Below, piece after piece: positions 43,672 to 56,272 of a stretch of 64,000 nucleotides of DNA (its first letter is position 1; each line of letters begins with the position of its first letter). The position numbers and the translations under genes were made by a program. A model generated the notes under the pieces. That model was not told the DNA's origin, did not search any database, and was given only the letters and a program-made list of their open reading frames with translations. Source of the stretch: a virus; the IMG/VR virus record IMGVR_UViG_3300008119_000039, positions 1 through 64,000 of that record; one strand, written 5' to 3'.

Positions 43672-44235
43672 ATGACAACTACTAAACACGAGTGGTGGGC
43701 AACCCCAGTTTGGGAAATTGAAACTGGGTTTGACTCAACCTTTAATAATGAGTTATTGGTAGAAATTGAAAAGTGTAAACCACCAACAAATCCTTATATG
43801 TTTAACATATGGGATTATAATACACCAAATATAACTACACTAAAACAAAAGATACTTTCTGCTGCAAAAGAAAATGCATCACCTTATTTGGGACAGGCTT
43901 ATACATTTAATCCAATAATGTCACGTGGTTGGGTTAATCGTCAGCATCCTGGAAATTCTCTTGCACTACATAATCATGGCGATGCGATGTTGGCTTGCAC
44001 ATATTACATAAAAACTCCAAATAATAGCGGAGACCTTCAGCTAGTAGATCCACGTGGTGGCGTTAATTGGGATTTAATTAGAGAAGGTAATGTTATGGGC
44101 ATTAAATATAAACGCATAAAACCAACTGAAGGTAAGCTGGTTATGTTTCCTGCATTTTTAGTGCACATGGTAGAGCTAAATAAAAGTCAAACTACTAGGA
44201 TTAGTTTGGCTACTAACATTTATACAGGGAATTAA
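43672..44235 (+). CDS. 2OG-Fe(II) oxygenase (phage HxH-type)
   Basis: HNH..YY..DPRGG..FPAFLVH..RISLA. Confidence 0.8.
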   Translation: MTTTKHEWWATPVWEIETGFDSTFNNELLVEIEKCKPPTNPYMFNIWDYNTPNITTLKQKILSAAKENASPYLGQAYTFNPIMSRGWVNRQHPGNSLALHNHGDAMLACTYYIKTPNNSGDLQLVDPRGGVNWDLIREGNVMGIKYKRIKPTEGKLVMFPAFLVHMVELNKSQTTRISLATNIYTGN

Positions 44236-44236
44236 A

Positions 44237-44911
44237 ATGAAACAATGGGTTGATTATCAATTAAAAAATCAAGTGCGTAACTGGGACTGGGAAAAGCGAG
44301 TTTACAAAATAGAAAATGTATCTCCAGTTCTTGGCGAACACTTCGATCAAATCGTGAATGGTATTGAAGATGGTTCAATTCCAACCAAATTTGAAAACGT
44401 ATTCTTTAATAAAGATTACATCGCAAGAACTGCAGCAAGCACCAATGGTGATGTCAGTGAAAACGATTTTAGAACTTGGTTGCTTGAGTACGCAGATTTA
44501 ATGTCTGGTCATGGTCACAATTATACTACCAACTTTGGTCCACACACCGAAGAAATTAATAAGAAATTTGCTGAGTTTTATAAACTAAAACTAGAAACAG
44601 TTTCTGCTAGAATTCAAATTGAAAAACCTGGACAATACTTTGTCGTTCATATGGATCGCCAGCGTTATAAAAAATGGACTTTAGATGAAGAAGTTGTTTA
44701 CGATAAAGTTCGTGATCAACATGCGCACGATATCTTTATTACATTCTTAACTGATCAACAGCTTGGTCAGAATTTTACTTTTGGATTGAATGCTATTAAT
44801 TGGAAGAAGGGTGACACCTTTACTTTTGAACATCAAAGTATCCCACACTACACTTCCAATGTTGGATATCATCCAAACTATATACTTGTTGTAACTGGCG
44901 AAAAGATTTAA
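44237..44911 (+). CDS. Putative 2OG-Fe(II) oxygenase-fold protein
   Basis: PGQYFVVHMD...WKKGD...PHYTSN. Confidence 0.6.
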   Translation: MKQWVDYQLKNQVRNWDWEKRVYKIENVSPVLGEHFDQIVNGIEDGSIPTKFENVFFNKDYIARTAASTNGDVSENDFRTWLLEYADLMSGHGHNYTTNFGPHTEEINKKFAEFYKLKLETVSARIQIEKPGQYFVVHMDRQRYKKWTLDEEVVYDKVRDQHAHDIFITFLTDQQLGQNFTFGLNAINWKKGDTFTFEHQSIPHYTSNVGYHPNYILVVTGEKI

Positions 44912-44920
44912 GGAAAAAAA

Positions 44921-45814
44921 ATGAAAAAGTTTTTATTTATTGTATTGATGGGCATTTCTAGTATTGCATCTGCAACCCAGCAAGTTCCAAGTCTATGGGC
45001 ATTTAACATTGCCAACACTCAAGGCACTTACTATCGTGCATTGCTTGAACAAGCAAATCAGAATCAAACAAAGTATCAATTCATCCCTGAGCATAAGCCA
45101 GGAGCAGGTGGTTCTATTGCTGCTGGGTATGTAAACAACAGCGATCGACTTACACTACTTGGTACTGCTGCAGCATTTTTTGTTCGCCCACATTTATACG
45201 ATAATGCTGGTTATACCTTTGATCAATTCAAACCTGTATATCTTATTGCAAATAGTCCTGTGGCGTTGACATCAAAGAGTAAAGATTTAAAAACAATTTT
45301 AGCTCAAAAGAAAATTTCAATTGGCACTGCTGGTCCTGGATCTGGAACTCACCTTTATGCATTAAAGTTTAAGGCTCGCCACCCAAACAAAGACATATTA
45401 GTAGTTCCATACAAAAGCAGCACAGAAGCAATTCAAGATGTTCTTGGTGGTCACATTGACTTAGCGTATGAATTTCTTGGTGATGCTGAAGCCAAGGGTG
45501 TTAAAGTCTTGGGTACTACTGGCACAAAAAAGATTAAGAACTATCCATTGTTAAAAGATATGGGATATCCAGATAATGCACAACTTATTGGAATCTATCA
45601 CATCTTAGTTAAGAAAGACGTTTCTGATGAAGTCGTTAGAGAACTACGAGAAATTTTCAATGAAGCAGAAAAGTCAGTAAGATTTCAAGAGTTGTATAAA
45701 TCTGACTCGTCATTTAAACCTGTATTAAAAACTGATAAAGATTACACTGATTGGTACAATAATACTATCAAAACAAATAGATCTCTTATTACACCAGATA
45801 TGAAACTAGACTAA
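44921..45814 (+). CDS. Bug/TctC-family periplasmic binding protein
   Basis: Signal peptide; KPGAGGSIA, GPGSGTHL, VPYK, DVLGGHID. Confidence 0.85.
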   Translation: MKKFLFIVLMGISSIASATQQVPSLWAFNIANTQGTYYRALLEQANQNQTKYQFIPEHKPGAGGSIAAGYVNNSDRLTLLGTAAAFFVRPHLYDNAGYTFDQFKPVYLIANSPVALTSKSKDLKTILAQKKISIGTAGPGSGTHLYALKFKARHPNKDILVVPYKSSTEAIQDVLGGHIDLAYEFLGDAEAKGVKVLGTTGTKKIKNYPLLKDMGYPDNAQLIGIYHILVKKDVSDEVVRELREIFNEAEKSVRFQELYKSDSSFKPVLKTDKDYTDWYNNTIKTNRSLITPDMKLD

Positions 45815-45820
45815 GAACAC

Positions 45821-46630
45821 ATGAACGATTCTGATAAGATAAAAAACTGGATCAGAAGTAAAGATCCAGTTTTACAAATTACCCAATGTAAAGATATATT
45901 GGGTAAGATTTTTAATCCTCAATATAGATCAAACAATCCCGTGCACGCCACGGATATGTCAAAACCATTTCATTTTTTAATTGATATAAAAACCAATAGG
46001 ATTATGCTGGCTACGCATAATTCCGAATTGATTAGAATACTATCAAGAATACCAAATACATTTCAAGTTTATAATATTACTGTTAGCCAAATACCTGGAT
46101 GTAAAGACTGGAAGCTAAATGAACATTTTGATTTTGAGTATCCTTGGAATTCAAAATCACTAGACGTTCAATTCTTTATCAATGCTAGCGAACTTGCTGT
46201 AGAACCACTAACTTCTGATCAGATCTATTATTATTTTCTAATTCAACAAAAAGCTGTTTTGATAAGTGTAATATTAGCCATTCTTGAATCTATGAGATTG
46301 GATTGCAATGTTAGCGACAATACATATCAAGAATCAATATACCGAGAGAAGTATGAGCAAGCATTAAAAGTTATTGAGAATAATATTTTTCACGATTATG
46401 AAAATGAATATTATTATGTTACTGACTGGGCTTCTATTAAAGAATTAGATTTGGTTTCTGCAGCAAGAGATATTAAACTCAATCACGATTTACTACACCA
46501 TAGACTGTCTAAGATAGAATATGCTAGACTTATGTTTATTGACAAGATACGTAAAGAAGAAACTCTAAGCAATTTACCTGTAATTCTAAAAGAGTTTAGA
46601 ATGTTTAACTTTGGATATTTAAAATTATGA
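45821..46630 (+). CDS. Hypothetical protein
   Basis: 269-aa AT-rich ORF coupled to the next gene. Confidence 0.65.
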   Translation: MNDSDKIKNWIRSKDPVLQITQCKDILGKIFNPQYRSNNPVHATDMSKPFHFLIDIKTNRIMLATHNSELIRILSRIPNTFQVYNITVSQIPGCKDWKLNEHFDFEYPWNSKSLDVQFFINASELAVEPLTSDQIYYYFLIQQKAVLISVILAILESMRLDCNVSDNTYQESIYREKYEQALKVIENNIFHDYENEYYYVTDWASIKELDLVSAARDIKLNHDLLHHRLSKIEYARLMFIDKIRKEETLSNLPVILKEFRMFNFGYLKL

Positions 46631-47766
46631 ACAACATTATCGCATATAATAGTGTTTATTATTTTGATAGAGAGTTTAGTGAAATATACCCTCAGCTATC
46701 ACATATGAACGATGTTAGATTGTTTGGTGGATTATTTTATCTTTATGCTAGAAATATGTCTATCAATGATAGAACAGAAACTATCCAGATACCATTGAAA
46801 ACAACAGTGCTTGATTACTGTAGGTTGCCAAAATTTGAAGTTAAAGATATTGACTTCGAACTTATTTGTAATAATAGAGCAAGATTGTTAATGGATCAAG
46901 CTAAACAAGGCAACCGTAAAATAGCAATTATGTGGAGTGGTGGCGTAGACAGTACACTAATTGCTACATCATTATTGAAAACTTGTACTAAAGATGAGCT
47001 AAAAGAAAACTGCGTAGTATTACTTTCTCAAGATTCTATTATTGAGAATCCAGCTTTTTATGATAAGCATATACTACCAAACTTTGAACTGATGGCAGCA
47101 AATAACTTTGCTCACATAATGGGCAACGACAAATACTTATATGTAACAGGCGAAGGTAATGACCAATTATTTGCCAGCTTGTTTGTAATTGAAGCATTTA
47201 AGGTTTTTCATAAAGATCCTGAAAGTCCATATAAAGAAATTTCAGATAGTCTTATGATTCCATTCATACAACATAGAACTTCTTTTAATGAAAAAGATTC
47301 TACAAAGTTGTATAGAATCTTAGAGAAACTTTGTGTAGCATCCCCAGTTAAAATTCAAACTCCGTATCAATTTTTCTGGTGGTGTAATTTTGCATTGAAG
47401 TGGCAAAATGTATATGTTCGTTCTATGTTGTTTAGTCATCCAATAAATCGAAACAATATTAAACCTGAGATTAACTATACTACGTTTTTCCACAATGATG
47501 AGTTCCAGCAATGGACTATGAATACTGTAAACAAGCATGGTAGAATAGGTAAAGATGATACCAACCATTCTTATAAAGAAGTGTGTAAAGAGATCATATA
47601 TGAATATGATGGTAACTTAGATTACAGAAAGAATAAAAATAAGTATGGTAGTTTCGGTAAAGTTATTATGAGTAAACACGCATCTAACTTTGTATTGGAA
47701 GATATATCGTTTTACAAGGATATTGATTTTATGGAAATGTATAACCCCATAAACGATTTCGTATAA
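46627..47766 (+). CDS. PP-loop adenylating enzyme (asparagine synthase-like ATP pyrophosphatase)
   Basis: MWSGGVDST, TGEGNDQLF. Confidence 0.7.
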   Translation: MNNIIAYNSVYYFDREFSEIYPQLSHMNDVRLFGGLFYLYARNMSINDRTETIQIPLKTTVLDYCRLPKFEVKDIDFELICNNRARLLMDQAKQGNRKIAIMWSGGVDSTLIATSLLKTCTKDELKENCVVLLSQDSIIENPAFYDKHILPNFELMAANNFAHIMGNDKYLYVTGEGNDQLFASLFVIEAFKVFHKDPESPYKEISDSLMIPFIQHRTSFNEKDSTKLYRILEKLCVASPVKIQTPYQFFWWCNFALKWQNVYVRSMLFSHPINRNNIKPEINYTTFFHNDEFQQWTMNTVNKHGRIGKDDTNHSYKEVCKEIIYEYDGNLDYRKNKNKYGSFGKVIMSKHASNFVLEDISFYKDIDFMEMYNPINDFV

Positions 47767-47769
47767 ATA
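47762..47769 (+). promoter_or_regulatory. T4 late promoter consensus
   Basis: TATAAATA ending 5 nt before the iscU ATG. Confidence 0.65.
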
Positions 47770-47774
47770 GAGTT

Positions 47775-48164
47775 ATGGCATACTCAGATAAAGTAATAGA
47801 TCACTACGAAAACCCACGAAATGTGGGTTCTTTCTCCAAAGAAGAGGAAGGTGTAGGAACAGGCATGGTTGGCGCACCAGCGTGTGGCGACGTGATGAAA
47901 CTTCAAATTAAGGTGGATGCAGATGGCATTATTAGAGATGCTCGTTTCAAGACATATGGCTGCGGTTCAGCAATCGCCAGTTCGTCGCTGGTTACAGAGT
48001 TGGTTAAGGGTATGCACATTGATGCTGCTAGTAGCATATCTAACTCTGAAATCGCACAAGAACTAGCCTTACCTCCAGTAAAGATTCACTGCTCAATCCT
48101 AGCAGAAGATGCCATCAAAGCAGCAGTTGCAGATTATAAAGCAAAGAATGATAACACTAACTGA
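47775..48164 (+). CDS. iscU: Fe-S cluster scaffold IscU
   Basis: MAYSDKVIDHYENPRNVG, APACGD, GCGSA, LPPVKIHC. Confidence 0.97.
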   Translation: MAYSDKVIDHYENPRNVGSFSKEEEGVGTGMVGAPACGDVMKLQIKVDADGIIRDARFKTYGCGSAIASSSLVTELVKGMHIDAASSISNSEIAQELALPPVKIHCSILAEDAIKAAVADYKAKNDNTN

Positions 48165-48468
48165 GATTGCAGCAGCAAAGATTACATCTCATCTATCTAA
48201 AAGAAAAACTGGAATTGGAATTAGGTTAGGTGTTAGAACAACAGGGTGTTCTGGCTTGGCTTACATTTTAGAATACGCTGACAAGTTGGAAGATACAGAT
48301 GTTGTTTATGAAGATCGTGGCATAAAATTGATTGTCGATCCAAAAAGTTTAGTATACCTAAGTGGAATGATAGTTGATTATGTACGAAATGGTCTGAACG
48401 AAGGATTTGAATTCAGTAACCCAAATGAACGTGACCGATGTGGTTGCGGAGAAAGTTTCAGGATATGA
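48148..48468 (+). CDS. iscA: A-type Fe-S carrier IscA
   Basis: TTGCSGLAY, GLNEGF, CGCGESF. Confidence 0.92.
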   Translation: MITLTEIAAAKITSHLSKRKTGIGIRLGVRTTGCSGLAYILEYADKLEDTDVVYEDRGIKLIVDPKSLVYLSGMIVDYVRNGLNEGFEFSNPNERDRCGCGESFRI

Positions 48469-48770
48469 TAACAATCACAGAAAACGCTACTGCTAAAATT
48501 ACAGACTTGCTGGCTGAACACCAAGAACCATACATGCGCATTTCAGTTAAGGGTGGTGGATGTTCAGGTTTCTCATACGCATTTGGTTTTGAGTCACTTA
48601 AAGATGAAAGTGACTTTGAACTCGGTACAGTTCTTGTAGATTCTATGAGCATGCAATACTTGCAGGGTGGTACTGTTGACTATACTGAGGACTTGATGGG
48701 TGCTGCATTTAAAGTGTCTAATCCAAACGCAACTTCTACTTGTGGTTGTGGCTCCAGCTTTGCAGCATAA
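48465..48770 (+). CDS. erpA: A-type Fe-S carrier ErpA-like
   Basis: GGGCSGFSY, VDSMSMQYL, NPNATSTCGCGSSF. Confidence 0.85.
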   Translation: MITITENATAKITDLLAEHQEPYMRISVKGGGCSGFSYAFGFESLKDESDFELGTVLVDSMSMQYLQGGTVDYTEDLMGAAFKVSNPNATSTCGCGSSFAA

Positions 48771-48775
48771 AATAC

Positions 48776-48804
48776 TTTACTTTAATTCAATAAAGGTGTA
48801 TAAT
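48776..48804 (+). promoter_or_regulatory. sigma70-type promoter of the tRNA cluster
   Basis: TTTACT-TTAATTC..-TATAAT. Confidence 0.75.
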
Positions 48805-48952
48805 TCTTACGTGAACTCGAAAATGATATCCTTAGGTAATAAGCATCTACCACTACTAAGTGGTTGGGGATGTCCACACCCACAGTATACATTTGCGATT
48901 GAGTTAGATAGTGGGGTTCTGTAAATGTCTCAATATAACTAAGGAGAAACAT

Positions 48953-49000
48953 ATGTCAGTAGAAGAATATTGGAAATGGATTCACGATAACGTACAATAA
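48953..49000 (+). CDS. Candidate 15-aa peptide MSVEEYWKWIHDNVQ
   Basis: Strong AAGGAG RBS at 48941. Confidence 0.4.
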   Translation: MSVEEYWKWIHDNVQ

Positions 49001-49006
49001 AAATTT

Positions 49007-49091
49007 GCGACTGTGGTGAAATAGGTAGACACAAGAGACTTAAAATCTCTCGCTGCAGAGCGTACCAGTTCGATTCTGGTCAGTCGCACCA
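49007..49091 (+). tRNA. tRNA-Leu(TAA)
   Basis: Cloverleaf, AGAGA-CT-TAA-AA-TCTCT, long variable arm, CCA. Confidence 0.95.
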
Positions 49092-49096
49092 AATTT

Positions 49097-49173
49097 GTCT
49101 CGTTAGCTCAGTTGGATAGAGCAACAGCCTTCTAAGCTGTGGGTCAGGAGTTCGAATCTCTTACGAGACGCCA
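49097..49173 (+). tRNA. tRNA-Arg(TCT)
   Basis: ACAGC-CT-TCT-AA-GCTGT, TTCGAAT, CCA. Confidence 0.95.
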
Positions 49174-49180
49174 AGTTGTT

Positions 49181-49255
49181 GGGCTGATAGCTTAATGGTA
49201 AAGCGTTCGACTCATAATCGATTGAGTGAGAGTTCAATTCTCTCTCAGCCCACCA
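49181..49255 (+). tRNA. tRNA-CAT (elongator Met or Ile2)
   Basis: G1-C72 paired acceptor, CT-CAT-AA loop, CCA. Confidence 0.85.
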
Positions 49256-49733
49256 CTACTTTAATTGGGAAAGGTTTTCTAGAGTTTGCGTATTCTTTTG
49301 CAAAAGGAACTGTTGAGCAACCATTTGTTTCGTCGCATTTGCCAGCGAATCGCTCGCATGTATTTGTAAGACAGTTAGTTAATTGCCTTACAGGTAATCC
49401 AGTTATAATGTTTATAACTTCTACTTTTGAAAGTATTTTATTTTGTTGATTCCAAACTCTTGCCTCATCTCTAATGAGTTCAGTAGAATCTACGTAATCA
49501 ACAAAGAAATCTCTGGCATAAGTAACAGTTTTAAATATACCTAGTTTTGTATGAAGAACATAGTTGTCTTCTTCATCTCGTTCTCGAGTGACTTCTAATT
49601 TATGTTTAAAGAAATACTTTTTATTTTTAATCAGTAAGTTTTGCATTAATGTGTTCATTTCTTGAACATCACCAACGTCACGATGAAAAAGATCTTCTTT
49701 TGTGTTTATAAGTTTCATTGATAAAAGATACAT
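49245..49733 (-). CDS. Hypothetical protein on the reverse strand within the tRNA array
   Basis: 162 aa, GGAG RBS on the minus strand, fills the tRNA-free gap; Cys-rich C-terminus. Confidence 0.65.
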   Translation of the reverse strand: MYLLSMKLINTKEDLFHRDVGDVQEMNTLMQNLLIKNKKYFFKHKLEVTRERDEEDNYVLHTKLGIFKTVTYARDFFVDYVDSTELIRDEARVWNQQNKILSKVEVINIITGLPVRQLTNCLTNTCERFAGKCDETNGCSTVPFAKEYANSRKPFPIKVVVG

Positions 49734-49754
49734 ATTTCTCCCAAGTAGTTTTAT

Positions 49755-49831
49755 GTGGGTGTGCTGCTGAATGGTTAGGCGACGGATTGCAAATCCGTTT
49801 TATGCAGGTTCAAGTCCTGTCACCCACTCCA
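49755..49831 (+). tRNA. tRNA-Cys(GCA)
   Basis: ACGGA-TT-GCA-AA-TCCGT, U discriminator, CCA. Confidence 0.92.
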
Positions 49832-49840
49832 AAATAATAT

Positions 49841-49869
49841 TTTACTTTAATTCACTTTTAAAGTATAAT
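49841..49869 (+). promoter_or_regulatory. sigma70-type promoter within the tRNA cluster
   Basis: TTTACT-TTAATTC..-TATAAT. Confidence 0.75.
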
Positions 49870-49890
49870 TGTATTTAGTTAGTTATTAAT

Positions 49891-49966
49891 GCTCGGTTCG
49901 TCTATCGGTCTAGGACACTGCCCTTTCACGGCAGGAAGAGGGGTTCGATTCCCCTACCGAGTACCA
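49891..49966 (+). tRNA. tRNA-Glu(TTC)
   Basis: CTGCC-CT-TTC-AC-GGCAG, CCA. Confidence 0.93.
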
Positions 49967-49967
49967 T

Positions 49968-50052
49968 GGAGATGTAGGAAAATTGGTAACCCCAGCTGAC
50001 TGTAAATCAGCCACCTCTGGTATTGTTGGTTCAAGTCCAGCCATCTCCACCA
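49968..50052 (+). tRNA. tRNA-Tyr(GTA)
   Basis: GCTGA-CT-GTA-AA-TCAGC, long variable arm, CCA. Confidence 0.92.
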
Positions 50053-50053
50053 A

Positions 50054-50267
50054 ATCTCGTCGGTAGCAAACGTGATTGCTATAGCTTACTCAGTTTCATC
50101 GAGTCGGAGGTGGTCATCCGTAAAGCAGAGTGCCCAGTATTTTCCAGGAAAAATACATAAAAGGGAGTCCGAACCACTGGATAGAACTGTAACTATCAAG
50201 AGATCAAAACACAGTGACAGAGTGTGCAACTCAAGTAGGGGCGATGTGGAAGTTGTAGCCTACACCA
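50054..50267 (+). ncRNA. Candidate structured ncRNA with two pseudoknots and a 3' ACCA
   Basis: Several hairpins, two loop-distal pairings, GTAGG/CCTAC stem followed by ACCA; lies between tRNAs. Confidence 0.65.
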
Positions 50268-50273
50268 AATTAT

Positions 50274-50347
50274 AGCGGATTAGAGAAACGGTATCTCGGA
50301 AGTTTCATATGCTTCAGTTGTTGGTTCGATTCCAGCATCCGCAACCA
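50274..50347 (+). tRNA. Initiator-like tRNA-Met(CAT), atypical anticodon arm
   Basis: A1:A72 mismatch, GAAGT-TT-CAT-AT-GCTTC, CCA. Confidence 0.8.
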
Positions 50348-50364
50348 AACATAAGTAGTAGTGA

Positions 50365-50448
50365 GCGCAAGTGGTGGAATGGTATACACGCTGGTCTTAG
50401 AAGCCAGTTCCGAAGGGATTGAGAGTTCGAGTCTCTCCTTGCGCACCA
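50365..50448 (+). tRNA. tRNA-Leu(TAG)
   Basis: CTGGT-CT-TAG-AA-GCCAG, long variable arm, CCA. Confidence 0.95.
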
Positions 50449-50475
50449 AATAACAATAACTGAAAGAGGTTAATC

Positions 50476-50652
50476 ATGGCAACAAAAGGTGGTAATCAAA
50501 AAACTCGTAAAGCAGATCCAATGAAAACCAAGACTGGCAAAGATCGTCTTGGTCCATTAAATGTTGCACAGTTGACTGCATTAAAAGAAAGAACTTCTCA
50601 TAAGAAAACAATTGCCAAGATTCAAAAAGAAATAGATCGTAAATCAAAGTAA
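50476..50652 (+). CDS. Small basic protein (58 aa, not in ORF track)
   Basis: GAGGT RBS; MATKGGNQKTRKADPMKTKTGKDRLGPLN... Confidence 0.65.
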   Translation: MATKGGNQKTRKADPMKTKTGKDRLGPLNVAQLTALKERTSHKKTIAKIQKEIDRKSK

Positions 50653-50677
50653 AGAATATTCCGCAGTAGTTTAGTTT

Positions 50678-50753
50678 GCCCCAGTAGCTCATTTGGTAGA
50701 GCAACTGATTAGTAATCAGTAGGTGGGCGGTTCGAATCCGTCCTGGGGCACCA
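50678..50753 (+). tRNA. tRNA-Thr(AGT)
   Basis: GCCCCAG/CTGGGGC acceptor, ACTGA-TT-AGT-AA-TCAGT, CCA. Confidence 0.9.
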
Positions 50754-50757
50754 ATAT

Positions 50758-50831
50758 GTCTCGATGGTGTAATGGCAGCATAAGTGTCTCCAAAACACTT
50801 GGTTGGGGTTCGAGTCCCTATCGGGATGCCA
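50758..50831 (+). tRNA. tRNA-Trp(CCA)
   Basis: AGTGT-CT-CCA-AA-ACACT, G discriminator, CCA. Confidence 0.9.
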
Positions 50832-50836
50832 AATAT

Positions 50837-50910
50837 GCAGGTAAGCCTAAGGTGGGACGCCAGCCTTCCAAGCTGCGCTGAGTGGAGTTCGATTCTCCCT
50901 ACCTGCTCCA
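50837..50910 (+). tRNA. tRNA-Gly(TCC)
   Basis: CAGC-CT-TCC-AA-GCTG, U discriminator, CCA; atypical D arm. Confidence 0.85.
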
Positions 50911-50930
50911 ATTTTTTAATGGAGTGTAAT

Positions 50931-51413
50931 ATGAAACGTATCGACATCGATGAAGTAAAACAATTCATCGAAGCACAGAGTCCCAGCACTAAGATCTATA
51001 TCGGTGGTGACTCTGACAGATTTCTTATCGGAAAAGATTGGTACGCAGATTACACACTTGCCATTGTTGTTCATATTAATGGTAATAATGGATGTAAAAT
51101 ATTTGGCGAAGTTCATCGTGAGCGTGACTACGACCAGAGAAGAGATAAACCACGTATGCGTTTAATGAATGAAGTTTATAAGATTGCTGACTTGTATTTA
51201 AAATTACATGATGTATTAGAAGATCGTCAGGTAGAAGTACACCTAGATATTAACCCAAACGAAATGTATGGTTCGTCATGCGTTATCAATGAAGCAGTTG
51301 GATATATTCGTGGAATGTGCAACGTAATTCCAATGGTTAAACCAAATGCATTCGCTGCTAGTTACTGTGCAGATCGTATGAAACAAATTATGTCTGACCG
51401 TAAGGCAGCATAA
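50931..51413 (+). CDS. RNase H-like YkuK-family protein
   Basis: IYIGGDS, RLMNEV, EVHLDIN, KPNAFAAS..AD. Confidence 0.8.
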   Translation: MKRIDIDEVKQFIEAQSPSTKIYIGGDSDRFLIGKDWYADYTLAIVVHINGNNGCKIFGEVHRERDYDQRRDKPRMRLMNEVYKIADLYLKLHDVLEDRQVEVHLDINPNEMYGSSCVINEAVGYIRGMCNVIPMVKPNAFAASYCADRMKQIMSDRKAA

Positions 51414-51416
51414 ATA
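51409..51416 (+). promoter_or_regulatory. T4-type late promoter
   Basis: CATAAATA upstream of the oxygenase island. Confidence 0.55.
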
Positions 51417-51439
51417 TATACATTGATAACTGAGGTGAT

Positions 51440-52174
51440 ATGAAAACATATAGTGTTGAAACTTACGATGACTTGATACCTGACGATCTTAGATGGAGAG
51501 TCTGGGAATATATTCAAAATCAAACATTTCATGCTACCCGCAAAGATGTGTCCTACCCAACTCCTGGACACATCATTCACTATAAACCTATCGATAACAA
51601 GAAAGAATATCTTGACGATAGCGTACCTTCAGTAAACAATCAATACATGCATCGTTGTGTCTTTGGCGATTCCGAAAATGAATTGTTGTTTAAACACAAA
51701 GTTATACACGAACTTTGGAAAACAATAAACAAGTCTACAGGTAACAAGTATGAGATAGCTGGAGACCAAGAAGGTATTGCAGATACTCCACCAAGATTGG
51801 CTCGTGTTTATTGTAATGCTCAACCAGAAGAAACTATTAAACGAAGTCATGGCATACATAGAGATACCATTGACCTAGATGAAACAAAACATTTCACATT
51901 AATGTATATTGCCAATCTACATTGGTATCCAACATGGATGGCAGAAAATGTTTTTTATTCAGAAGATGCTAGTACAAGTGATAATCAAATCTGGCAACGT
52001 GGTTACGGACAATCTCGAGGTTTCCCTGTTGGATGGCCATATAAAATAGTTTCTCCTGTTGCTGGACGTGTAATCATTTATGACGGAAGAGCATTGCATA
52101 CTACAAAACCATGTGCCCCATGGGCTGACGAAATGCGTTATGCTGTAATTTTTAGAATTCGTGAAAAGGATTGA
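51440..52174 (+). CDS. 2OG-Fe(II) oxygenase
   Basis: HRD...GRVIIYDGRALH...RYAVIF. Confidence 0.75.
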   Translation: MKTYSVETYDDLIPDDLRWRVWEYIQNQTFHATRKDVSYPTPGHIIHYKPIDNKKEYLDDSVPSVNNQYMHRCVFGDSENELLFKHKVIHELWKTINKSTGNKYEIAGDQEGIADTPPRLARVYCNAQPEETIKRSHGIHRDTIDLDETKHFTLMYIANLHWYPTWMAENVFYSEDASTSDNQIWQRGYGQSRGFPVGWPYKIVSPVAGRVIIYDGRALHTTKPCAPWADEMRYAVIFRIREKD

Positions 52175-52175
52175 T

Positions 52176-52868
52176 ATGGAATCTATGGAACAAAAACCAA
52201 TTACTTATGTAAAACATAATGATGAGGTTATTGATGAAGTACACAATCTCTGGCAAACTCCAGTAATTACTGCCAGACCATTTAGTGAAGACTTTATCTG
52301 TCAACTAGAAGAAGATGTAAAGTATCTGTTAAAACCTGGAGCACCTGCCACACTAAACAAAACTAATATCTGGGAATTGCCTGATCTACCTGATAGCTTT
52401 AGGGAAGTAGAGAAAAAGTTTATCGAACTAACAGACAAGTACTATCGTCCACTAACAGAAATGCCCTTACCACCACTGTACTGTTCAAAGGGTTACTTCA
52501 GAGATATTAAACAGAATAGTATATATCGTATTTCACCACATAAGCATGCTCAGACATTGGGTGTTGGTATAATCTATCTTACTGTGCCAAAACGCAATGC
52601 TGGTAATCTAGTTTTACTGGACCCTCGTGGTGGCGTTATGTGGCACAATCAATTCACGCCATTTAAACGTATTGCTGTTGAGCGTGGTTTGCTGGTTATT
52701 CATCCAGGATATCTCGTACACTTTGTGGAACCAACTGATTATGACAACGCTAGATATGATTATAGAAATGCATTGGTTTCTAATATTCACTGGAAGCACG
52801 CTGACTTTATTAAAGAACTTGAAAAGAATGAAGAATCCGTTTTTAAAATGGGGAGCATAGAAGTATGA
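52176..52868 (+). CDS. 2OG-Fe(II) oxygenase (paralog of 43672-44235)
   Basis: HKH..IYL..DPRGG..HPGYLVH..RNALVSN. Confidence 0.75.
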   Translation: MESMEQKPITYVKHNDEVIDEVHNLWQTPVITARPFSEDFICQLEEDVKYLLKPGAPATLNKTNIWELPDLPDSFREVEKKFIELTDKYYRPLTEMPLPPLYCSKGYFRDIKQNSIYRISPHKHAQTLGVGIIYLTVPKRNAGNLVLLDPRGGVMWHNQFTPFKRIAVERGLLVIHPGYLVHFVEPTDYDNARYDYRNALVSNIHWKHADFIKELEKNEESVFKMGSIEV

Positions 52869-53509
52869 TAAAGGTTAATATACCTCCTAGAAAAAAATCA
52901 AATCCTGGGGATACTGTAGAAACAGAATTTCTTTTTAAAATTTTGCCAGATTTACCACATCCACCTGAAGAGTTATTGCGTCAAAACTTAGCCACAAATA
53001 AACACAATAACATACCACAAATTCCGCACTTTGATGGATTCAAACGGGAAGATGGACAAACTGTTTCTCCAGAAATCAAAGCGTGGTTGTGTCCAGATAA
53101 TTTAGATAAATGGGTACAGGACAATATTGGTCCAACCAATCGTGGATTGATATATCGTAAAGTCTTGATTCAAGATGATAAGAAATTTTACCCACCACAT
53201 ATAGATGTAAATCGTAAATTTGTTATGCTCTATAATTTGGTGGATTCGGGTGGTGAGTTTTGTTACTGGCAAGAAAAGAACTTGCCTGTTATAAGAAGTA
53301 TGCTAACTCGTGCTATGTGTTTTGATTATTCACAATTAACATTGATTGAGAAGTTTGTTCCACCAGTTAGAACTTGGTACCTAACTAATGTTCAAGCATT
53401 ACACAGTGTTGAGAACTTATCTGCAGTTAGAGAGAATATTCAGTTTAATCTTGAGCCATGGGATCCGTTGGTAGTTGAACATTTAAAACCTATTAATAGA
53501 AATGTTTGA
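52865..53509 (+). CDS. Putative 2OG-Fe(II) oxygenase-fold protein
   Basis: PPHID...LHSVEN...RENIQ. Confidence 0.6.
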   Translation: MIKVNIPPRKKSNPGDTVETEFLFKILPDLPHPPEELLRQNLATNKHNNIPQIPHFDGFKREDGQTVSPEIKAWLCPDNLDKWVQDNIGPTNRGLIYRKVLIQDDKKFYPPHIDVNRKFVMLYNLVDSGGEFCYWQEKNLPVIRSMLTRAMCFDYSQLTLIEKFVPPVRTWYLTNVQALHSVENLSAVRENIQFNLEPWDPLVVEHLKPINRNV

Positions 53510-54236
53510 GCAGTTTATTGAATCCGATGTTAGGAAGACTAGATTACATTTACCTGTAAATGAAGAGTCTGTTAGTAAAAAACTAACTGCCATGCTACCC
53601 AGCGATATAATTGATAATGCTACTATTTTAGATTTAGGATGTGCAACAGGTTCAGCTGGACATTGGTGCAATTTAAACAAATGTAAAAGTTATACTGGTG
53701 TAGAATTACAAGATAATTATTATAGAACAGCAAAACAGCTTTTACCAGATTCAGAAATCGTACAGAGTGATGTAATTGAGTTTTTAAAAACCACAGATAG
53801 AAATTGGGAAGTTGTAATTGCCGCTGGTTTATTGCATGGTGTGTTCAATCCATTTGAAATCATTTCATTGATAGACAAAGTAGCTACTGATTATATTATC
53901 ATTGAAAATAATGAAACAGTTGAAGGTAAAATTCCAAGCATTCATTTCCGCAAAACCAATATGGTTAATGATACCGATATGAATAATCCCTACTATGGAT
54001 ATGCTACTTATATTGGTAGTTCTGCTCTTGAGTTTATTATGAATGAATATGGTTGGGTGGGTACTAGAGTTTATCCTGAAGAACTAATTAATGGAATAGA
54101 TCCATATCACCACAAAACAGTTTTTGATCCTAGTATTCCTGAACACGTACATAGATACATATACATCTTTCAAAGATCTAATACCATAAAGCAATCACTT
54201 GAGCATTTAGTAAGGAATTCAAATGTGGAAGTTTGA
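53502..54236 (+). CDS. Class I SAM-dependent methyltransferase-like protein
   Basis: ILDLGCATG, YTGVE, AGLLHG. Confidence 0.8.
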   Translation: MFEQFIESDVRKTRLHLPVNEESVSKKLTAMLPSDIIDNATILDLGCATGSAGHWCNLNKCKSYTGVELQDNYYRTAKQLLPDSEIVQSDVIEFLKTTDRNWEVVIAAGLLHGVFNPFEIISLIDKVATDYIIIENNETVEGKIPSIHFRKTNMVNDTDMNNPYYGYATYIGSSALEFIMNEYGWVGTRVYPEELINGIDPYHHKTVFDPSIPEHVHRYIYIFQRSNTIKQSLEHLVRNSNVEV

Positions 54237-54840
54237 TAAGGAAGTTGCTGATAGATTTGAAACTGAGGCTATAAACAATATTCCAGATTACCATCGTGTA
54301 ATTGATATGTGTGTAGATATAGCCAAGCAAAAAAGGTTTTCTAGCGAAATAAATGTAGTTGACGTTGGCAGTGCACTTGGATTCACTGTTGATAGATTTA
54401 TCAATGCTGATTATCCTTACACATATGGTGTTGAGTCCAGTGCAGATATGATTGAAAAATCTTTACATAAAGATAAAATTTTTATGTCAAACACATTCCC
54501 AGTTATGCCAGTTGAATTTGTAATGGCTAATTGGACTCTGCACTTTGTAAAAGAACGCAAACAGTATATACAAGACATATACAATAATATGACTGGTGGT
54601 GTGTTTATACTATCAGAAAAAACTACACAGACCAAAGAAGTGAAAGAGTTGTACTATAACTTCAAGATAGCTAATGGTGTCTCTGAAGAATACATAGCAA
54701 AGAAAGAACAGCTACTACAGGGATTTATGGATTTGTACCCAGTAGATTGGTACATACAAACCTTAACTGACGTAGGGTTTAAAAACATACAGATTATAAA
54801 TGCAAGATACGGATTTGTAACTTTCTATTGTGAGAAATAA
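54223..54840 (+). CDS. CmoA-like carboxy-SAM synthase/methyltransferase
   Basis: WKFD.EVA.RF..IPDY, DVGSALG, NWTLHF, LSEK. Confidence 0.7.
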   Translation: MWKFDKEVADRFETEAINNIPDYHRVIDMCVDIAKQKRFSSEINVVDVGSALGFTVDRFINADYPYTYGVESSADMIEKSLHKDKIFMSNTFPVMPVEFVMANWTLHFVKERKQYIQDIYNNMTGGVFILSEKTTQTKEVKELYYNFKIANGVSEEYIAKKEQLLQGFMDLYPVDWYIQTLTDVGFKNIQIINARYGFVTFYCEK

Positions 54841-55328
54841 TGAGATATCATTGTCTAAAAGAATTTGCAAATATACCATTTCATGTGGTTGAAGAAGCTA
54901 AACGTGCCACATATGAAATGGGTAGATACCCAAATGTACTAAAAGCTGGATCATCATTTAATCACAGTTCAATTATGAAATCACTGCGTAAACAATTTGG
55001 TGATAATGTTGGTGGTATATACATAAAAAATAATCCTTGGTCATTTTATGACTGGCACATCGATATGAATAGACAATGTTCTATAAATTGGTTATTAAAA
55101 ACCAATTCAAATGCACTGACATTACATCGAGAGAAAACTGAACCCGAAAGATTAAACTCTATAATATATAACATATTTCCAGTCGAATACGTTTTATATA
55201 AACCAACTATTATGGACACTACAGTAGAACACTGCGTAATCAATTCTTCAGATGAAGAACGAATCATATTCAGCGTTAGTTTAGATGTTCCTTTTAATGA
55301 TGTGAAAGGATTCCTCAGTGTGGTTTAA
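54840..55328 (+). CDS. Putative 2OG-Fe(II) oxygenase-fold protein
   Basis: WHID..RQCSIN...EHCVIN...RIIFS. Confidence 0.6.
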   Translation: MRYHCLKEFANIPFHVVEEAKRATYEMGRYPNVLKAGSSFNHSSIMKSLRKQFGDNVGGIYIKNNPWSFYDWHIDMNRQCSINWLLKTNSNALTLHREKTEPERLNSIIYNIFPVEYVLYKPTIMDTTVEHCVINSSDEERIIFSVSLDVPFNDVKGFLSVV

Positions 55329-55578
55329 CAATCATCTAAAAGAAGCTGCACTTTACTCCAGAACTAAGACTGGCGTAAAGTTTTATTTCATTCATATGAT
55401 ATGGGCAATACACTTGGCTAGTTTACTATTTGTGTGGTCATTACTTATGATAGTACATGCCATTGTACCGCAGTTAGTTGGGTTTGTAGTTATAGATAAA
55501 ATGATAAACTTACTAAAAAATCTTAAAACAAAACATCCTGATGATCCTATACTATCTAAAATAAAATTTGATGAGTAG
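55318..55578 (+). CDS. Small membrane protein
   Basis: HLKE...YFIH...IVHAIVP. Confidence 0.6.
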   Translation: MWFNNHLKEAALYSRTKTGVKFYFIHMIWAIHLASLLFVWSLLMIVHAIVPQLVGFVVIDKMINLLKNLKTKHPDDPILSKIKFDE

Positions 55579-56272
55579 ATACGAAATAACTAGAGTTGGC
55601 TTACCAATTACACGTGCCACGGTAACTGATGAGTTTTTAGATATAATTACAGAACTTAAAAGCAATCCAAAATCTATTGCAATAACAGTTAGTGATGATT
55701 CTAAAAACGCACCAGAAGGTTATCGCATACTGGAACAAAACGGTATAACCTACACTAACATTGATGTTTGGGAATCTGATAGAGATCCAGTTAAGGCAAC
55801 TCTAAAGTTACTAAGTACGTTAAAGCAAATGCACAGTGAGTTGTTGTTTGACCATGTTATGTTATTTACACCTGGAAATCCATATATTGATGATGCAATT
55901 ACCAAAGTGTTATTGTCTGCGTATGACGATATAAAAGTTGTTACAACAAAAAGTGCCGCAGAAATTAGCAGTGATGTTATTATAGAACTAACCAATCGTA
56001 ATACTATAATCCGAAATTATTACGACGACTTTGTGTTGATGTTAAATCCAACCATAGATAGATCTCGGGTGAATATTTTTAGTTGTTTACAAAATCTATA
56101 TAATGTAGATTTACGCACAGTGATAACTACCTTACAACCTACCAAGGTAATAACGGTAACCATAGGTGCAGAAACTATTACGAAGCAGTATACGTATGAA
56201 GAGATCCTAGAATGTAGTGACACACTATCCAGCAGCGATACTACGTATACATTTGGGTTTATATTTGACTAA
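55571..56272 (+). CDS. Tetrapyrrole-methylase-fold-like protein
   Basis: RVGL...VMLFTPGNPYIDD...IKVVTTKSA weakly resembles class III methylase motifs. Confidence 0.45.
   Translation: MSRYEITRVGLPITRATVTDEFLDIITELKSNPKSIAITVSDDSKNAPEGYRILEQNGITYTNIDVWESDRDPVKATLKLLSTLKQMHSELLFDHVMLFTPGNPYIDDAITKVLLSAYDDIKVVTTKSAAEISSDVIIELTNRNTIIRNYYDDFVLMLNPTIDRSRVNIFSCLQNLYNVDLRTVITTLQPTKVITVTIGAETITKQYTYEEILECSDTLSSSDTTYTFGFIFD

What the first reader, a model, noticed from the sequence alone, without database searches (positions are those of the whole stretch)
50054..50267. ~215-nt double-pseudoknot RNA ending in an acceptor-like stem plus ACCA inside the tRNA array
Seen pairings: ATCTC(50054)/GAGAT(50200) closing stem; TAGCAA/TTGCTA; ACTC/GAGT; a CGGA/TCCG hairpin whose loop GTGGT can pair with ACCAC(50173); GTATTTT/AAAATAC; a GATAG/CTATC hairpin whose loop ACTGT can pair with ACAGT(50211); GAGT/ACTC; and terminal GTAGG/CCTAC followed by ACCA. 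It is spaced like a tRNA gene, so it is probably processed as a stable RNA. It has no cloverleaf and no tmRNA-like ends. It is analogous in position to T4 species 1/2 RNAs. Inference: a tRNA-mimic, decoy or aminoacylatable ncRNA.
Basis: partly seen in the sequence, partly recalled or inferred. Interest (0 to 1): 0.72.

Follow-up and report, generated by a model that had tools for sequence, protein, structure and literature searches.

The report
Uncatalogued folded RNA in phage tRNA array
The 215 bases between two tRNA genes of this uncultured freshwater phage are a real gene for an intricately folded non-coding RNA that recurs in other phages' tRNA clusters and matches no catalogued RNA family; its job is unknown, and its tRNA-like ACCA tail is not a conserved feature.

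Summary
Observation confirmed. On this sequence alone the fold is no better than chance (MFE z +0.24). Pattern scans found 11 further distinct full-length homologues (59-86% identical) in tRNA arrays of uncultured phages. On the 12-sequence alignment 94.5% of pair cells are paired (31-41% when partners are slid), and 27 of 58 pairs show compensatory changes. Both proposed pseudoknots are fully complementary in 12 of 12, each with one covarying pair. Nested alternatives fit equally well.

There is no Rfam match, no tRNA or tmRNA call, no conserved ORF, and no similarity to T4 rnaC/rnaD or to 50,697 GenBank phage records. A covariance model also matches a shorter "type B" form end to end in 9 of 100 related loci. 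That form shares the 5' and 3' domains but not the core. This scan has noted the wider family before on other DNA (e1-5337221, e1-6076567).

Interpretation partly supported. It is most likely a stand-alone RNA cassette, co-transcribed with tRNAs and released by tRNA processing. The tail is ACCA in only 4 of 12 members (ACCG in 5, A-rich in 3), so an aminoacylatable tRNA mimic is unlikely. Function unknown. The complete genome of the closest relative I found lacks it.

The parts
50053..50267 (+). Whole RNA gene (type A member of the family). It starts at the first base after the CCA of tRNA-Tyr and ends with ACCA, 6 nt before tRNA-Met.
   Evidence: Covariance model R1 matches 50053-50270 at 246.5 bits. 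The profile HMM matches 50054-50269. It is present once in the held record.
50054..50058 (+). P0 5' strand (AUCUC); pairs with 50200-50204 (GAGAU). Alternatively its CUC pairs with GAG at 50220-50222.
   Evidence: 88% of cells paired on A2, with 1 pair changed on both sides. Type B keeps it with a compensatory change (AUCCC/GGGAU in L033). RNAalifold prefers the CYC/GRG alternative.
50063..50082 (+). P1 hairpin, 7 bp, with conserved loop ACGUGA (RCGUKA in the family).
   Evidence: 100% paired. 5 of 7 pairs changed on both sides on A2 and 7 of 7 on A3 with type B included.
50088..50104 (+). P2 hairpin (ACUC/GAGU).
   Evidence: 97.9% paired; 3 of 4 pairs changed on both sides.
50105..50120 (+). 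P3 hairpin (CGGA/UCCG) with G-rich loop GGUGGUCA; loop bases 50109-50114 form the 5' strand of pseudoknot 1.
   Evidence: 3 pairs are invariant. The 4th is paired in only 2 of 12 members, this window among them.
50173..50178 (+). 3' strand of pseudoknot 1 (ACCACU), facing loop 50109-50114.
   Evidence: 6 pairs, 100% paired in 12 of 12. One covarying pair, U-A in 8 and C-G in 4. Nested alternatives fit both strands equally well, with one-sided changes only.
50133..50165 (+). P4: invariant CCC/GGG base (50133-50135 with 50163-50165) and a variable 7-bp hairpin (50137-50143 with 50150-50156), apical loop CCAGGA.
   Evidence: 7 of 7 hairpin pairs changed on both sides. The hairpin is exchanged even between members 91% identical overall. 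The apex holds a perfect 6-nt palindrome in 6 of 12 members.
50180..50197 (+). P5 hairpin (GAUAG/CUAUC) with invariant loop AACUGYAA; loop bases 50186-50190 form the 5' strand of pseudoknot 2.
   Evidence: 96.7% paired; 4 of 5 pairs changed on both sides.
50211..50215 (+). 3' strand of pseudoknot 2 (ACAGU).
   Evidence: 5 pairs, 100% paired. One covarying pair, U-A in 10 and C-G in 2 (L173, L174). A competing nested pairing, CRCUG 50175-50179 with CAGUG 50212-50216, is also possible.
50216..50232 (+). Conserved GACAGRGU block and small hairpin P7 (GAGU/ACUC); start of the 3' domain shared with type B.
   Evidence: 91.7% paired with one-sided changes only. GACAG and CUCA are invariant in 18 of 18 aligned rows.
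50235..50263 (+). Terminal helix P6 (GUAGG/CCUAC) with internal loop GG/UAG and inner hairpin P6b (loop GUGGAA).
   Evidence: 4 of 6 pairs changed on both sides on A2 and 5 of 6 on A3. GGGC and GUAGC are nearly invariant across types A and B.
50264..50267 (+). ACCA tail.
   Evidence: ACCA in 4 of 12, ACCG in 5 of 12, AAUA in 2 and AAAA in 1. Only the first A is kept in all 12.
49968..50052 (+). Upstream tRNA-Tyr(GUA), whose 3' processing would set the RNA's 5' end.
   Evidence: ARAGORN and Rfam.
50274..50347 (+). Downstream tRNA-Met(CAU), whose 5' cut by RNase P would free the RNA's 3' end.
   Evidence: ARAGORN and Rfam. The role of RNase P is inferred.
49841..49869 (+). Promoter-like site TTTACT-17-TATAAT before tRNA-Glu; a possible start of the Glu-Tyr-RNA-Met-Leu transcript.
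   Evidence: 10 of 12 consensus matches. Sites in the region are not enriched (11 found, 7.1 +/- 3.7 in shuffles). No terminator-like site in 48600-51500.

Best explanation
Window 50053-50267 is the gene of a roughly 215-nt non-coding RNA. It belongs to an uncatalogued family of structured RNAs that sit as single-copy cassettes inside the tRNA arrays of uncultured freshwater phages. These include relatives of the T4 superfamily of about 160-170 kb and at least one 358-kb phage. Shown: the family exists, is conserved at 59-86% identity, and keeps seven helices by compensatory change. It has about 100 invariant positions, many of them in unpaired joining strands. It has no conserved reading frame. 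It comes in two forms that share a 5' domain (P1-P3) and a 3' domain (GACAGRGU, P7, P6) around different cores. Inferred: it has no promoter or terminator of its own, so it is transcribed with the neighbouring tRNAs and cut out by the enzymes that mature them. RNase P, cutting at the 5' end of the next tRNA, would free its 3' side. 3' maturation of the preceding tRNA would free its 5' side. The terminal helix plus the A(CC) tail most likely acts as a stop for 3' trimming, that is, as an end-protection signal shared with the tRNA cassettes, and not as an amino-acid acceptor. The compact, probably doubly pseudoknotted core then acts in trans by binding a partner that is not yet known. It may act as a dimer through the self-complementary loop of P4.
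For: Homologues: pattern scans gave 11 further distinct full-length members in viral and metagenome contigs. All lie in tRNA arrays. Structure: 94.5% of cells paired against 31-41% when slid, 27 of 58 pairs with double changes, and 0 of 500 shuffles as high. With type B added, 93.9% paired and 32 of 47 pairs changed, though that alignment is fitted to the model. Not coding: only this window (+ strand) and L160 (- strand) have a stop-free frame; the other 10 have stops in all six frames. Not a known family: Rfam shows only tRNAs at gathering level and nothing in the element at E<=10. Ten homologous loci gave only tRNA and GOLLD among the 150 rows shown. Cassette behaviour: the flanking tRNAs differ. 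They are Tyr>Met here, Tyr>Asp in L164/L168/L169/L176/L177, Ser>Ser in L160, Ala>Glu in L163, and Arg(tcg) with no close tRNA downstream in L174. An RNA-library contig carries the identical element behind a tRNA-Asp-like 3' end. Copy number: one per record. The complete 161.9-kb genome of the closest relative I found (neighbouring RNase H-like protein 94% identical) has none. Family breadth: model R1 matches type B end to end in 9 of 100 related loci, E 1e-12 to 1e-14. Presence in RNA libraries: contigs of 4 runs from 4 studies cover 50050-50256, 50078-50256, 50071-50221 and 50069-50252 with 0 differences. No terminator-like site occurs in 48600-51500. P4 apex palindromes (CCAUGG, CCGCGG, CUGCAG) occur in 6 of 12 members.
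Against: No experiment shows a discrete transcript, its ends or its stability. The RNA-library data are assembled contigs, which cannot show ends or strand, and DNA can be present in such libraries. The single-sequence fold is not better than chance. The 12 members fall into only about seven lineages, and eight are 81-99% alike. Each pseudoknot's single covarying pair could therefore reflect one or two events. Nested alternatives are compatible with the same letters. The closing stem fails in L160, L163, L173 and L174. In L173 and L174 no tRNA follows closely, so release by RNase P cannot be general. Five of 12 members, this one included, have the imperfect loop CCAGGA, and L160 has no palindrome, so dimerisation is not general either. 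No partner protein or target was identified. A close relative does without the RNA, so it is accessory.
Confidence: 0.62

Rival explanations
1. tRNA mimic or decoy. The terminal helix plus ACCA is recognised like an acceptor end (by RNase P, the CCA-adding enzyme, a synthetase or an anticodon nuclease). The RNA is charged, or it soaks up a tRNA-directed host factor.
For: The helix followed by an unpaired A is kept in 12 of 12 members, and ACC follows in 9 of 12. The RNA sits where a tRNA (Asp) sits in relatives. From my own knowledge, T4 rnaD also ends in CACCA, which I read in the record.
Against: CCA is complete in only 4 of 12 members. L163, L173 and L174 end AAUA/AAAA, although tRNAs in the same arrays encode CCA. 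There is no T-loop GTTCRA and no cloverleaf. ARAGORN and the Rfam tRNA/tmRNA models do not match. The terminal helix has 5-6 bp interrupted by an internal loop, not a 7+5 bp minihelix.
Confidence: 0.1
2. Cis-acting processing or spacing element of the tRNA operon. The fold exists only to guide or pace nuclease cuts and so set the yield of the neighbouring tRNAs, and it has no trans function.
For: It always abuts the CCA of an upstream tRNA-like end. The domains conserved between types A and B are the two ends, next to the cut sites. No terminator or clear promoter of its own.
Against: About 100 invariant positions and a conserved complex core are far more than an insulator hairpin needs. Most tRNA junctions in the same arrays have 2-10 nt spacers and need nothing. 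The neighbouring tRNAs differ between members.
Confidence: 0.12
3. Ribozyme or ligand-binding RNA. The invariant joining strands and the two pseudoknots form an active site or pocket, for example for self-cleavage at its own boundary or for sensing a metabolite.
For: There is a high density of invariant unpaired nucleotides (AGAGUGCCCA, AAGGGAGUCCGAACC, AACUGYAA, GUGACAG) next to covarying helices. That pattern is typical of ribozymes and riboswitch aptamers (my own knowledge).
Against: No match to any ribozyme or riboswitch model in Rfam 15 at E<=10. There is no downstream gene to regulate. Type B lacks the type A core altogether, so the core is not essential to the family.
Confidence: 0.07
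4. Non-functional filler: decayed tRNA genes or recombination debris left in a polymorphic slot of the array.
For: The slot after tRNA-Tyr is highly polymorphic in relatives, with 4 to 667 nt and several unrelated inserts. A close relative lacks the element. The MFE is not unusual.
Against: It is conserved at 59-86% identity across at least seven lineages, with compensatory changes in 27 of 58 pairs. It occurs in unrelated array contexts and in a 358-kb phage. There is no residual tRNA signal.
Confidence: 0.02
5. A small protein gene (the 67-codon GTG frame at 50072-50275).
For: The frame is open in this window.
Against: It is not open in any of the other 11 members. P4 differs in length by 4 nt between close relatives, which would shift the frame. 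No Pfam hit. There is no ribosome-binding site, and the frame overlaps the next tRNA.
Confidence: 0.01

Closest known systems
Phage T4 rnaC and rnaD (species 1 and 2 RNAs) of the T4 tRNA region
   Same: Small non-tRNA RNAs encoded head to tail with tRNA genes on the same strand of a T4-type phage. In the T4 record they lie at 70908-71171, next to tRNA-Arg. rnaD ends in CACCA. Their function is still unknown (passages read in PMC3014915, and PMC9697503).
   Different: No sequence similarity: the type A profile against the 5-kb T4 tRNA region, with all filters off, gives only one chance hit at E=30 outside rnaC/rnaD, and R1 gives no match in it. They are shorter (139 and 119 nt against about 215). 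rnaC ends in a T-arm-like GGGTTCGAATCCC, which this RNA lacks.
The freshwater-phage tRNA-array RNA family noted earlier in this scan (e1-5337221; also e1-5788556, e1-5791222 and others)
   Same: The type B elements of my related loci share short words with those notes. My type A model matches type B end to end. The 5' hairpins, the 3' domain and the array location are the same. A self-complementary loop was noted there, and I see one at the P4 apex in 6 of 12 members.
   Different: This window carries type A. It has a different, longer core (P4, P5, two candidate pseudoknots) that I did not find in type B. I could not see the earlier alignments, so identity of the two families is inferred from shared words and from my own model.
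GOLLD RNA (Rfam RF02032) and ROOL RNA
   Same: Phage-borne structured RNAs of unknown function, often near tRNA islands (passages of PMC12286853). GOLLD lies in the same arrays as two type A members: L173 1600-2061 and L163 2226-2690. They assemble into RNA-only complexes, which makes the palindromic P4 loop here worth testing.
   Different: They are several times larger (many GOLLD members exceed 800 nt, per the same passages). There is no Rfam match at the element. This window has no GOLLD.
YrlA / bacterial Y RNA (Rfam RF02553)
   Same: A structured RNA with a tRNA-like feature that can be phage-borne. It was named as closest known by the earlier follow-up e1-5337221.
   Different: No RF02553 match. 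No Ro60/TROVE and no RtcB gene in the held 84.5-kb record, which is only 53% complete. No T-arm/D-arm module was recognised.
tmRNA and viral tRNA-like structures
   Same: Pseudoknots combined with a helix-plus-CCA end.
   Different: ARAGORN finds no tmRNA. The best tmRNA_permuted score is 16.2 bits against a gathering score of 47, and it lies mostly on tRNA-Tyr. The Tymo_tRNA-like hit (19.3 against 40) lies on tRNA-Glu/Tyr. There is no tag frame, and the 5' and 3' ends do not pair into an acceptor stem.

Membership tests
tRNA (RF00005) | Cloverleaf with acceptor stem formed by the 5' and 3' ends, plus D, anticodon and T arms | tested here: not met
   ARAGORN tRNAs in the window, none in 50053-50273. 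cmscan at E<=10 gives no tRNA match inside the element.
tRNA-like acceptor minihelix | Terminal helix followed by a discriminator base and CCA | tested here: not met
   Helix plus unpaired A in 12 of 12 members, but CCA in only 4 of 12 (ACCG in 5, AAUA/AAAA in 3). The helix has 5-6 bp with an internal loop.
tmRNA (RF00023, RF04321) | tRNA-like domain from paired ends, plus a tag reading frame and pseudoknots | tested here: not met
   No ARAGORN tmRNA. Best tmRNA_permuted score 16.2 bits against a gathering score of 47, overlapping tRNA-Tyr.
T4 rnaC/rnaD stable RNAs | Sequence or structure homology to T4 species 1 or 2 RNA | tested here: not met
   nhmmer --max of the A2 profile on T4 69000-74000 gives only E=30, outside rnaC/rnaD. 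R1 has no match in L182.
T4 rnaC/rnaD stable RNAs | Encoded within the tRNA operon, same strand, butt-joined to tRNA genes | tested here: met
   It starts 1 nt after the CCA of tRNA-Tyr and ends 6 nt before tRNA-Met. The T4 layout was read.
T4 rnaC/rnaD stable RNAs | Accumulates as a discrete stable RNA in infection | not testable with these tools
   Only contigs of RNA libraries were available. They show presence without differences in 4 runs of 4 studies, but no ends and no strand.
Scan's tRNA-array RNA family (type A + type B) | 5' AUCYCG + P1 hairpin with RCGUKA loop + P2 + P3 | tested here: met
   Present in all 12 type A members and in the 5 distinct type B rows aligned by R1. P1 is 100% paired, with 7 of 7 pairs changed on both sides.
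Scan's tRNA-array RNA family (type A + type B) | 3' domain GACAGRGU-P7-P6 with GGGC...GUAGC internal loop | tested here: met
   Iterated nhmmer converges on 26 hits (17 distinct) among 181 sequences searched. The blocks are invariant in 18 of 18 rows.
Scan's tRNA-array RNA family (type A + type B) | Same family as the earlier reports e1-5337221 and others | tested here: inconclusive
   Type B shares 10-15 of 48 short words with eight earlier findings. I could not see their sequences or alignments.
YrlA / Y RNA (RF02553) | Model match, and a Ro60 (TROVE) gene nearby | tested here: not met
   No RF02553 match. PF05731 has 0 matches in the held record, which is 53% complete.
GOLLD (RF02032) | Match to the GOLLD model | tested here: not met
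   No match in the window. GOLLD is found elsewhere in L173 and L163, apart from the element.

The most novel reading that the evidence does not exclude
The RNA is the type A form of a modular phage RNA. Its conserved ends dock it to the tRNA-maturation machinery. Its exchangeable core and self-complementary P4 loop let it assemble into an RNA-only dimer or higher complex, in the way GOLLD and ROOL do. That complex would capture a host tRNA-directed factor such as an anticodon nuclease, a tRNA-modifying enzyme or a repair enzyme. This would make it an RNA-based counter-defence or tRNA-pool manager encoded among the tRNAs it protects.
Probability: 0.1. Interest if true: 0.8.

Novelty: new variant of a known kind. 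Interest (0 to 1): 0.55.

Why it matters
Stable non-tRNA RNAs inside phage tRNA operons have been known since T4's species 1 and 2 RNAs, and they are still unexplained (PMC3014915, PMC9697503). This element shows that such RNAs are not curiosities of single phages. It is a conserved, complex-fold family with an alignment, a testable secondary structure and a covariance model. It occurs in at least seven lineages of uncultured freshwater phages and comes in two forms that swap their cores. It behaves as a mobile cassette in a polymorphic slot. That gives natural presence/absence pairs, for example this contig against the complete genome behind L003, for asking what the RNA does. About 100 invariant nucleotides around two candidate pseudoknots make it a good candidate for structure determination and for partner pull-downs. 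It also corrects an attractive but weak inference: an ACCA after a helix inside a tRNA array need not mean tRNA mimicry.

Tried and rejected
1. Direct similarity searches failed. blastn of 50040-50290 against 50,697 GenBank phage records found no match. The same was true for a type B member and for L163. Megablast of 44000-56000 hit only tRNAs.

2. Relatives fetched through neighbouring proteins (L002-L102) held no copy by blastn or nhmmer with the single sequence. This first suggested an orphan. Profile and covariance searches later found type B in 9 of these loci.

3. An exact 26-mer scan of viral contigs found nothing.

4. A loose pattern (ACTGTA...GTAGG...CCTACACCA) gave 56 stretches that I judged chance matches. 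The exception is L135, which shares the 5' hairpin style and a helix-ACCA end. R1 did not match L135 at E<=1, so I leave it out of the family.

5. The genome-contig scan gave two hits (Brevibacterium, a Bordetella MAG) that R1 does not match. I found no prokaryotic copy with that one strict pattern, which does not show absence.

6. L162, L166, L171 and L175 are chance pattern matches in other sequence and were dropped before alignment. L165 and L170 (same as L163), L172 (same as L164) and L178 (same as L173) are duplicates and were counted once.

7. Read depth: the coding flanks 49700-49767 and 50482-50700 had no cover in the four RNA-library runs, while the tRNAs and the element did.

8. The shared contig end at 50256 in X15 and X16 overlaps contigs that begin at 50227 by 30 nt. 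I read this as an assembly-graph break, not an RNA end.

9. One X16 contig joins 50055 to 50272, skipping 216 nt, but has 6 differences in 54 nt. I read it as a relative without the element, not as excision.

10. Ro60/TROVE and RtcB were not found in the held record, which is 53% complete.

11. The coding reading was rejected.

12. By eye I compared the conserved strands with what I recall of RNase P RNA, HDV-like ribozymes, K-turns, sarcin-ricin loops and T-loops. I saw no convincing match. None of this was tested by a tool and I make no claim from it.

13. Literature. Searches (terms: phage, tRNA array, non-coding RNA, pseudoknot; rnaC, rnaD, bacteriophage T4, stable RNA; phage, tRNA cluster, structured RNA, covariation, metagenom) gave no paper describing this RNA among the listed titles and abstracts. 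For PMC10690425 I read only passages. It predicts 8,495 candidate structured RNAs of 29-151 nt from IMG/VR.
Full report
**What is there.** The stretch lies in a tRNA array on the + strand of an 84.5-kb IMG/VR contig, estimated 53% complete. ARAGORN and Rfam agree on ten tRNAs between 49007 and 50831. The element fills the 221-nt gap between tRNA-Tyr (49968-50052) and tRNA-Met (50274-50347). The phage has a gp43-type DNA polymerase about 55% identical to those of T4-like cyanophages. Its relatives are uncultured phages of 160-175 kb with 24-33 tRNAs in an array.

**Checking the observation.** This sequence alone gives no sign that they exceed chance. The minimum free energy is -48.7 kcal/mol against -49.7 +/- 4.1 for shuffles, z = +0.24. 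Rfam gives nothing in the element even at E<=10. The weak tmRNA_permuted and Tymo_tRNA-like rows lie on the neighbouring tRNAs.

**Finding relatives.**
- BLAST against GenBank phages found nothing.
- The 101 loci fetched through neighbouring proteins showed no similarity to the element. The flanking tRNAs matched well, and relatives have tRNA-Asp, or Asp plus other inserts, at this place.
- A look-up in this scan's earlier notes pointed to a look-alike "between two Ser tRNAs" ending in the same helix plus ACCA (e1-6076567).
- I turned its described features into patterns. A first loose pattern returned chance matches. A tighter one found L160, which is that look-alike (65 of 65 words).
- Blocks conserved between the window and L160 then gave L163, L164, L167 and L168 in viral contigs. 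They gave L169, L173, L174, L176, L177 and L179 in metagenome contigs.
- After dropping chance matches (L162, L166, L171, L175) and duplicates (L165, L170, L172, L178), there are 12 distinct full-length sequences. They are 59-86% identical to the window and fall into about seven lineages.
- A genome-contig scan with one strict pattern gave two chance matches only.

**Structure.**
- 94.5% of 696 cells form standard pairs, against 30.6-40.8% with partners slid.
- 27 of 58 pairs have changes on both sides, against 5-10 when slid.
- The covariation score is 0.412, against 0.03-0.10 when slid. 0 of 500 shuffles reach the observed pairing or covariation score.
- P1 (5 of 7 pairs), P2 (3 of 4), P4 (7 of 7), P5 (4 of 5) and P6 (4 of 6) carry the double changes.
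- P3 has three invariant pairs. P7 and the CCC/GGG base of P4 are invariant or change on one side only.
- Pseudoknot 1 (loop of P3 with ACCRCU) is complementary in 12 of 12, with one covarying pair (U-A in 8, C-G in 4).
- Pseudoknot 2 (loop of P5 with RCAGU) is complementary in 12 of 12, with one covarying pair (U-A in 10, C-G in 2).

Two cautions apply. First, the C-G variants sit in the divergent lineages, so each may be one or two events. Second, RNAalifold's nested alternatives (GGGYG with GUGCC, and CRCUG with CAGUG) tolerate the same letters through G-U pairs. The double pseudoknot is therefore the better-supported reading, but it is not proven.

The closing stem AUCUC/GAGAU holds in the eight close members and in type B, where L033 has the compensating AUCCC/GGGAU. 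It fails in L160, L163, L173 and L174. In those members a CYC/GRG pairing with the GACAGRG block is possible instead.

**A wider family.** The A2 profile gave weak partial hits. Iterating on the 3' domain converged on 26 hits, 17 of them distinct. The covariance model R1 built from A2 then matched these loci over its whole length: 9 of 100 related loci, E about 1e-12 to 1e-14. The 9 are L010, L024/L026/L027, L029, L033 and L070/L071/L075. In the model alignment these "type B" RNAs (185-200 nt) share three things with type A:
- the 5' AUCYCG,
- P1 (with its RCGUKA loop), P2 and P3,
- the 3' GACAGRGU-P7-P6 domain with the GGGC...GUAGC internal loop.

Between these domains type B has an unrelated core. 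With type B included, 93.9% of cells pair and 32 of 47 pairs show double changes. That alignment is fitted to the model, which favours it. Type B shares short words with eight earlier findings of this scan, among them a followed-up report of an undescribed RNA family in freshwater-phage tRNA arrays (e1-5337221). The superfamily has thus been noticed before on other DNA. The type A core in this window is the new part here.

**Context and behaviour.**
- The RNA is single-copy in the held record and in the records behind L160, L167 and L024. The complete 357.6-kb record behind L163 has one full copy plus a distant 3'-domain relative.
- The complete 161.9-kb genome behind L003 has none. Its neighbouring RNase H-like protein is 94% identical to the window's. 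The RNA is therefore accessory.
- Flanking tRNAs vary: Tyr>Met here, Tyr>Asp in five members, Ser>Ser, Ala>Glu, and Arg with nothing close downstream. One RNA-library contig has the identical element behind a tRNA-Asp-like end.
- In relatives the slot after tRNA-Tyr holds anything from 4 nt to 667 nt, including at least one other unrelated RNA-like family of about 126-132 nt.
- I read the array as a string of exchangeable cassettes.
- The region has one good promoter-like site before tRNA-Glu and no terminator-like site. Co-transcription with the tRNAs is therefore inferred.

**The ACCA question.** After the terminal helix the first base is A in all 12 members. The next three are CCA in 4 (window, L160, L164, L167), CCG in 5, and AUA or AAA in 3. 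Type B tails are ACUU, ACUA, UCCU and AUCU. A CCA end is thus not a family feature, and aminoacylation or CCA-dependent mimicry is unlikely as the general function. From my own knowledge, 3' exonucleases that mature stable RNAs, RNase T in particular, are stopped by a duplex and by terminal C residues. I propose that helix plus ACC is an end-definition signal of the kind the neighbouring tRNAs use. This is an inference.

**Expression.** Twenty runs from 15 studies hold part of the stretch, six of them RNA libraries. I laid four RNA libraries from four studies. Contigs with no difference cover 50050-50256 (X15, depth figure 288), 50078-50256 (X16), 50071-50221 (X17) and 50069-50252 (X18, two contigs). 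These are assembled contigs. They show that the sequence is in RNA libraries. They do not show that it is transcribed, and they do not show where the RNA ends.

**Coding and other rivals.** The 67-codon frame open in this window is closed in the other 11 members, and it has no Pfam match. T4 rnaC and rnaD, read from the T4 record, are analogous in place but unrelated in sequence. Their function is still unknown according to passages of PMC3014915 and PMC9697503. GOLLD occurs in the arrays of two type A carriers but not here. Passages of PMC12286853 say that GOLLD and ROOL lie near tRNA islands and form RNA-only assemblies. This is why I flag the P4 apex. It is a perfect 6-nt palindrome in 6 of 12 members (CCAUGG in two separate lineages, CCGCGG, CUGCAG). 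It is the imperfect CCAGGA in 5, this window included, and there is none in L160.

**Verdict.** This is a real, conserved, complex-fold non-coding RNA gene. It is a new structural variant (type A) within an uncatalogued family of phage tRNA-array RNAs. Its function is unknown. It is most likely released by tRNA processing and acts in trans. The tRNA-mimic reading is not supported. Confidence that it is a genuine structured RNA family is about 0.9. Confidence in the full mechanism as stated is about 0.6.

Noticed in passing
window 50836-50911 (+): Cloverleaf-looking tRNA-Gly(UCC)-like sequence ending in CTCCA, directly after tRNA-Trp. Neither ARAGORN nor Rfam at gathering level calls it. Relatives have tRNA-Gly(tcc or gcc) at this place.
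   Followed up: no
window 49245-49733 (-): 162-codon ORF on the opposite strand, splitting the tRNA array between tRNA-Met and tRNA-Cys. No Pfam or PHROG match and no DNA similarity in 101 related loci. Possibly a mobile insert.
   Followed up: partly
window 50476-50652 (+): 58-codon ORF with a Shine-Dalgarno sequence, inside the array between tRNA-Leu and tRNA-Thr. Relatives occur in 20 viral loci. No family match.
   Followed up: partly
L007 6622-6747, L011 5084-5215, L021 6911-7036, parts of L063 and L066: A different insert of about 126-132 nt (ending ...CGGCTAAAGTTCGTAATGCCAC) occupies the same Tyr>Asp slot in other relatives. Further unrelated inserts of 84, 101 and 181 nt also occur there. 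The slot is a hotspot for small RNA-like cassettes.
   Followed up: no
L003 7993-8143: 150-nt spacer between tRNA-Glu and tRNA-Tyr, closed by a 16-nt inverted repeat (TTAGTTTAGTGTTATC ... GATAACACTAAACTAA). It looks like another structured RNA.
   Followed up: no
L173 1600-2061 and L163 2226-2690: GOLLD RNA (RF02032, 227 and 198 bits) lies in the same tRNA arrays as two type A members. In L173 it encloses a tRNA-Asn.
   Followed up: no
L163 40-225 (-), L135 4618-4760 (+): L163 holds a second, distant relative that shares the 3' domain (R1 24 bits, positions 163-211) and a CCCGGUUUA-hairpin 5' end. L135 has the same style of 5' hairpin and a helix-ACCA end, but R1 does not match it.
   Followed up: partly
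window 50050-50256, RNA-library contig X15 record 7: The identical element (0 differences in 207 nt) is preceded in that sample by a tRNA-Asp-like 3' end instead of tRNA-Tyr. This is a rearranged array variant.
   Followed up: no
window 50274-50347 (+): The downstream tRNA-Met(CAU) has an A at position 1 that does not pair with position 72 in the Rfam alignment. Another first-reader note (e1-6121935) discusses it as an unusual initiator-like tRNA.
   Followed up: no
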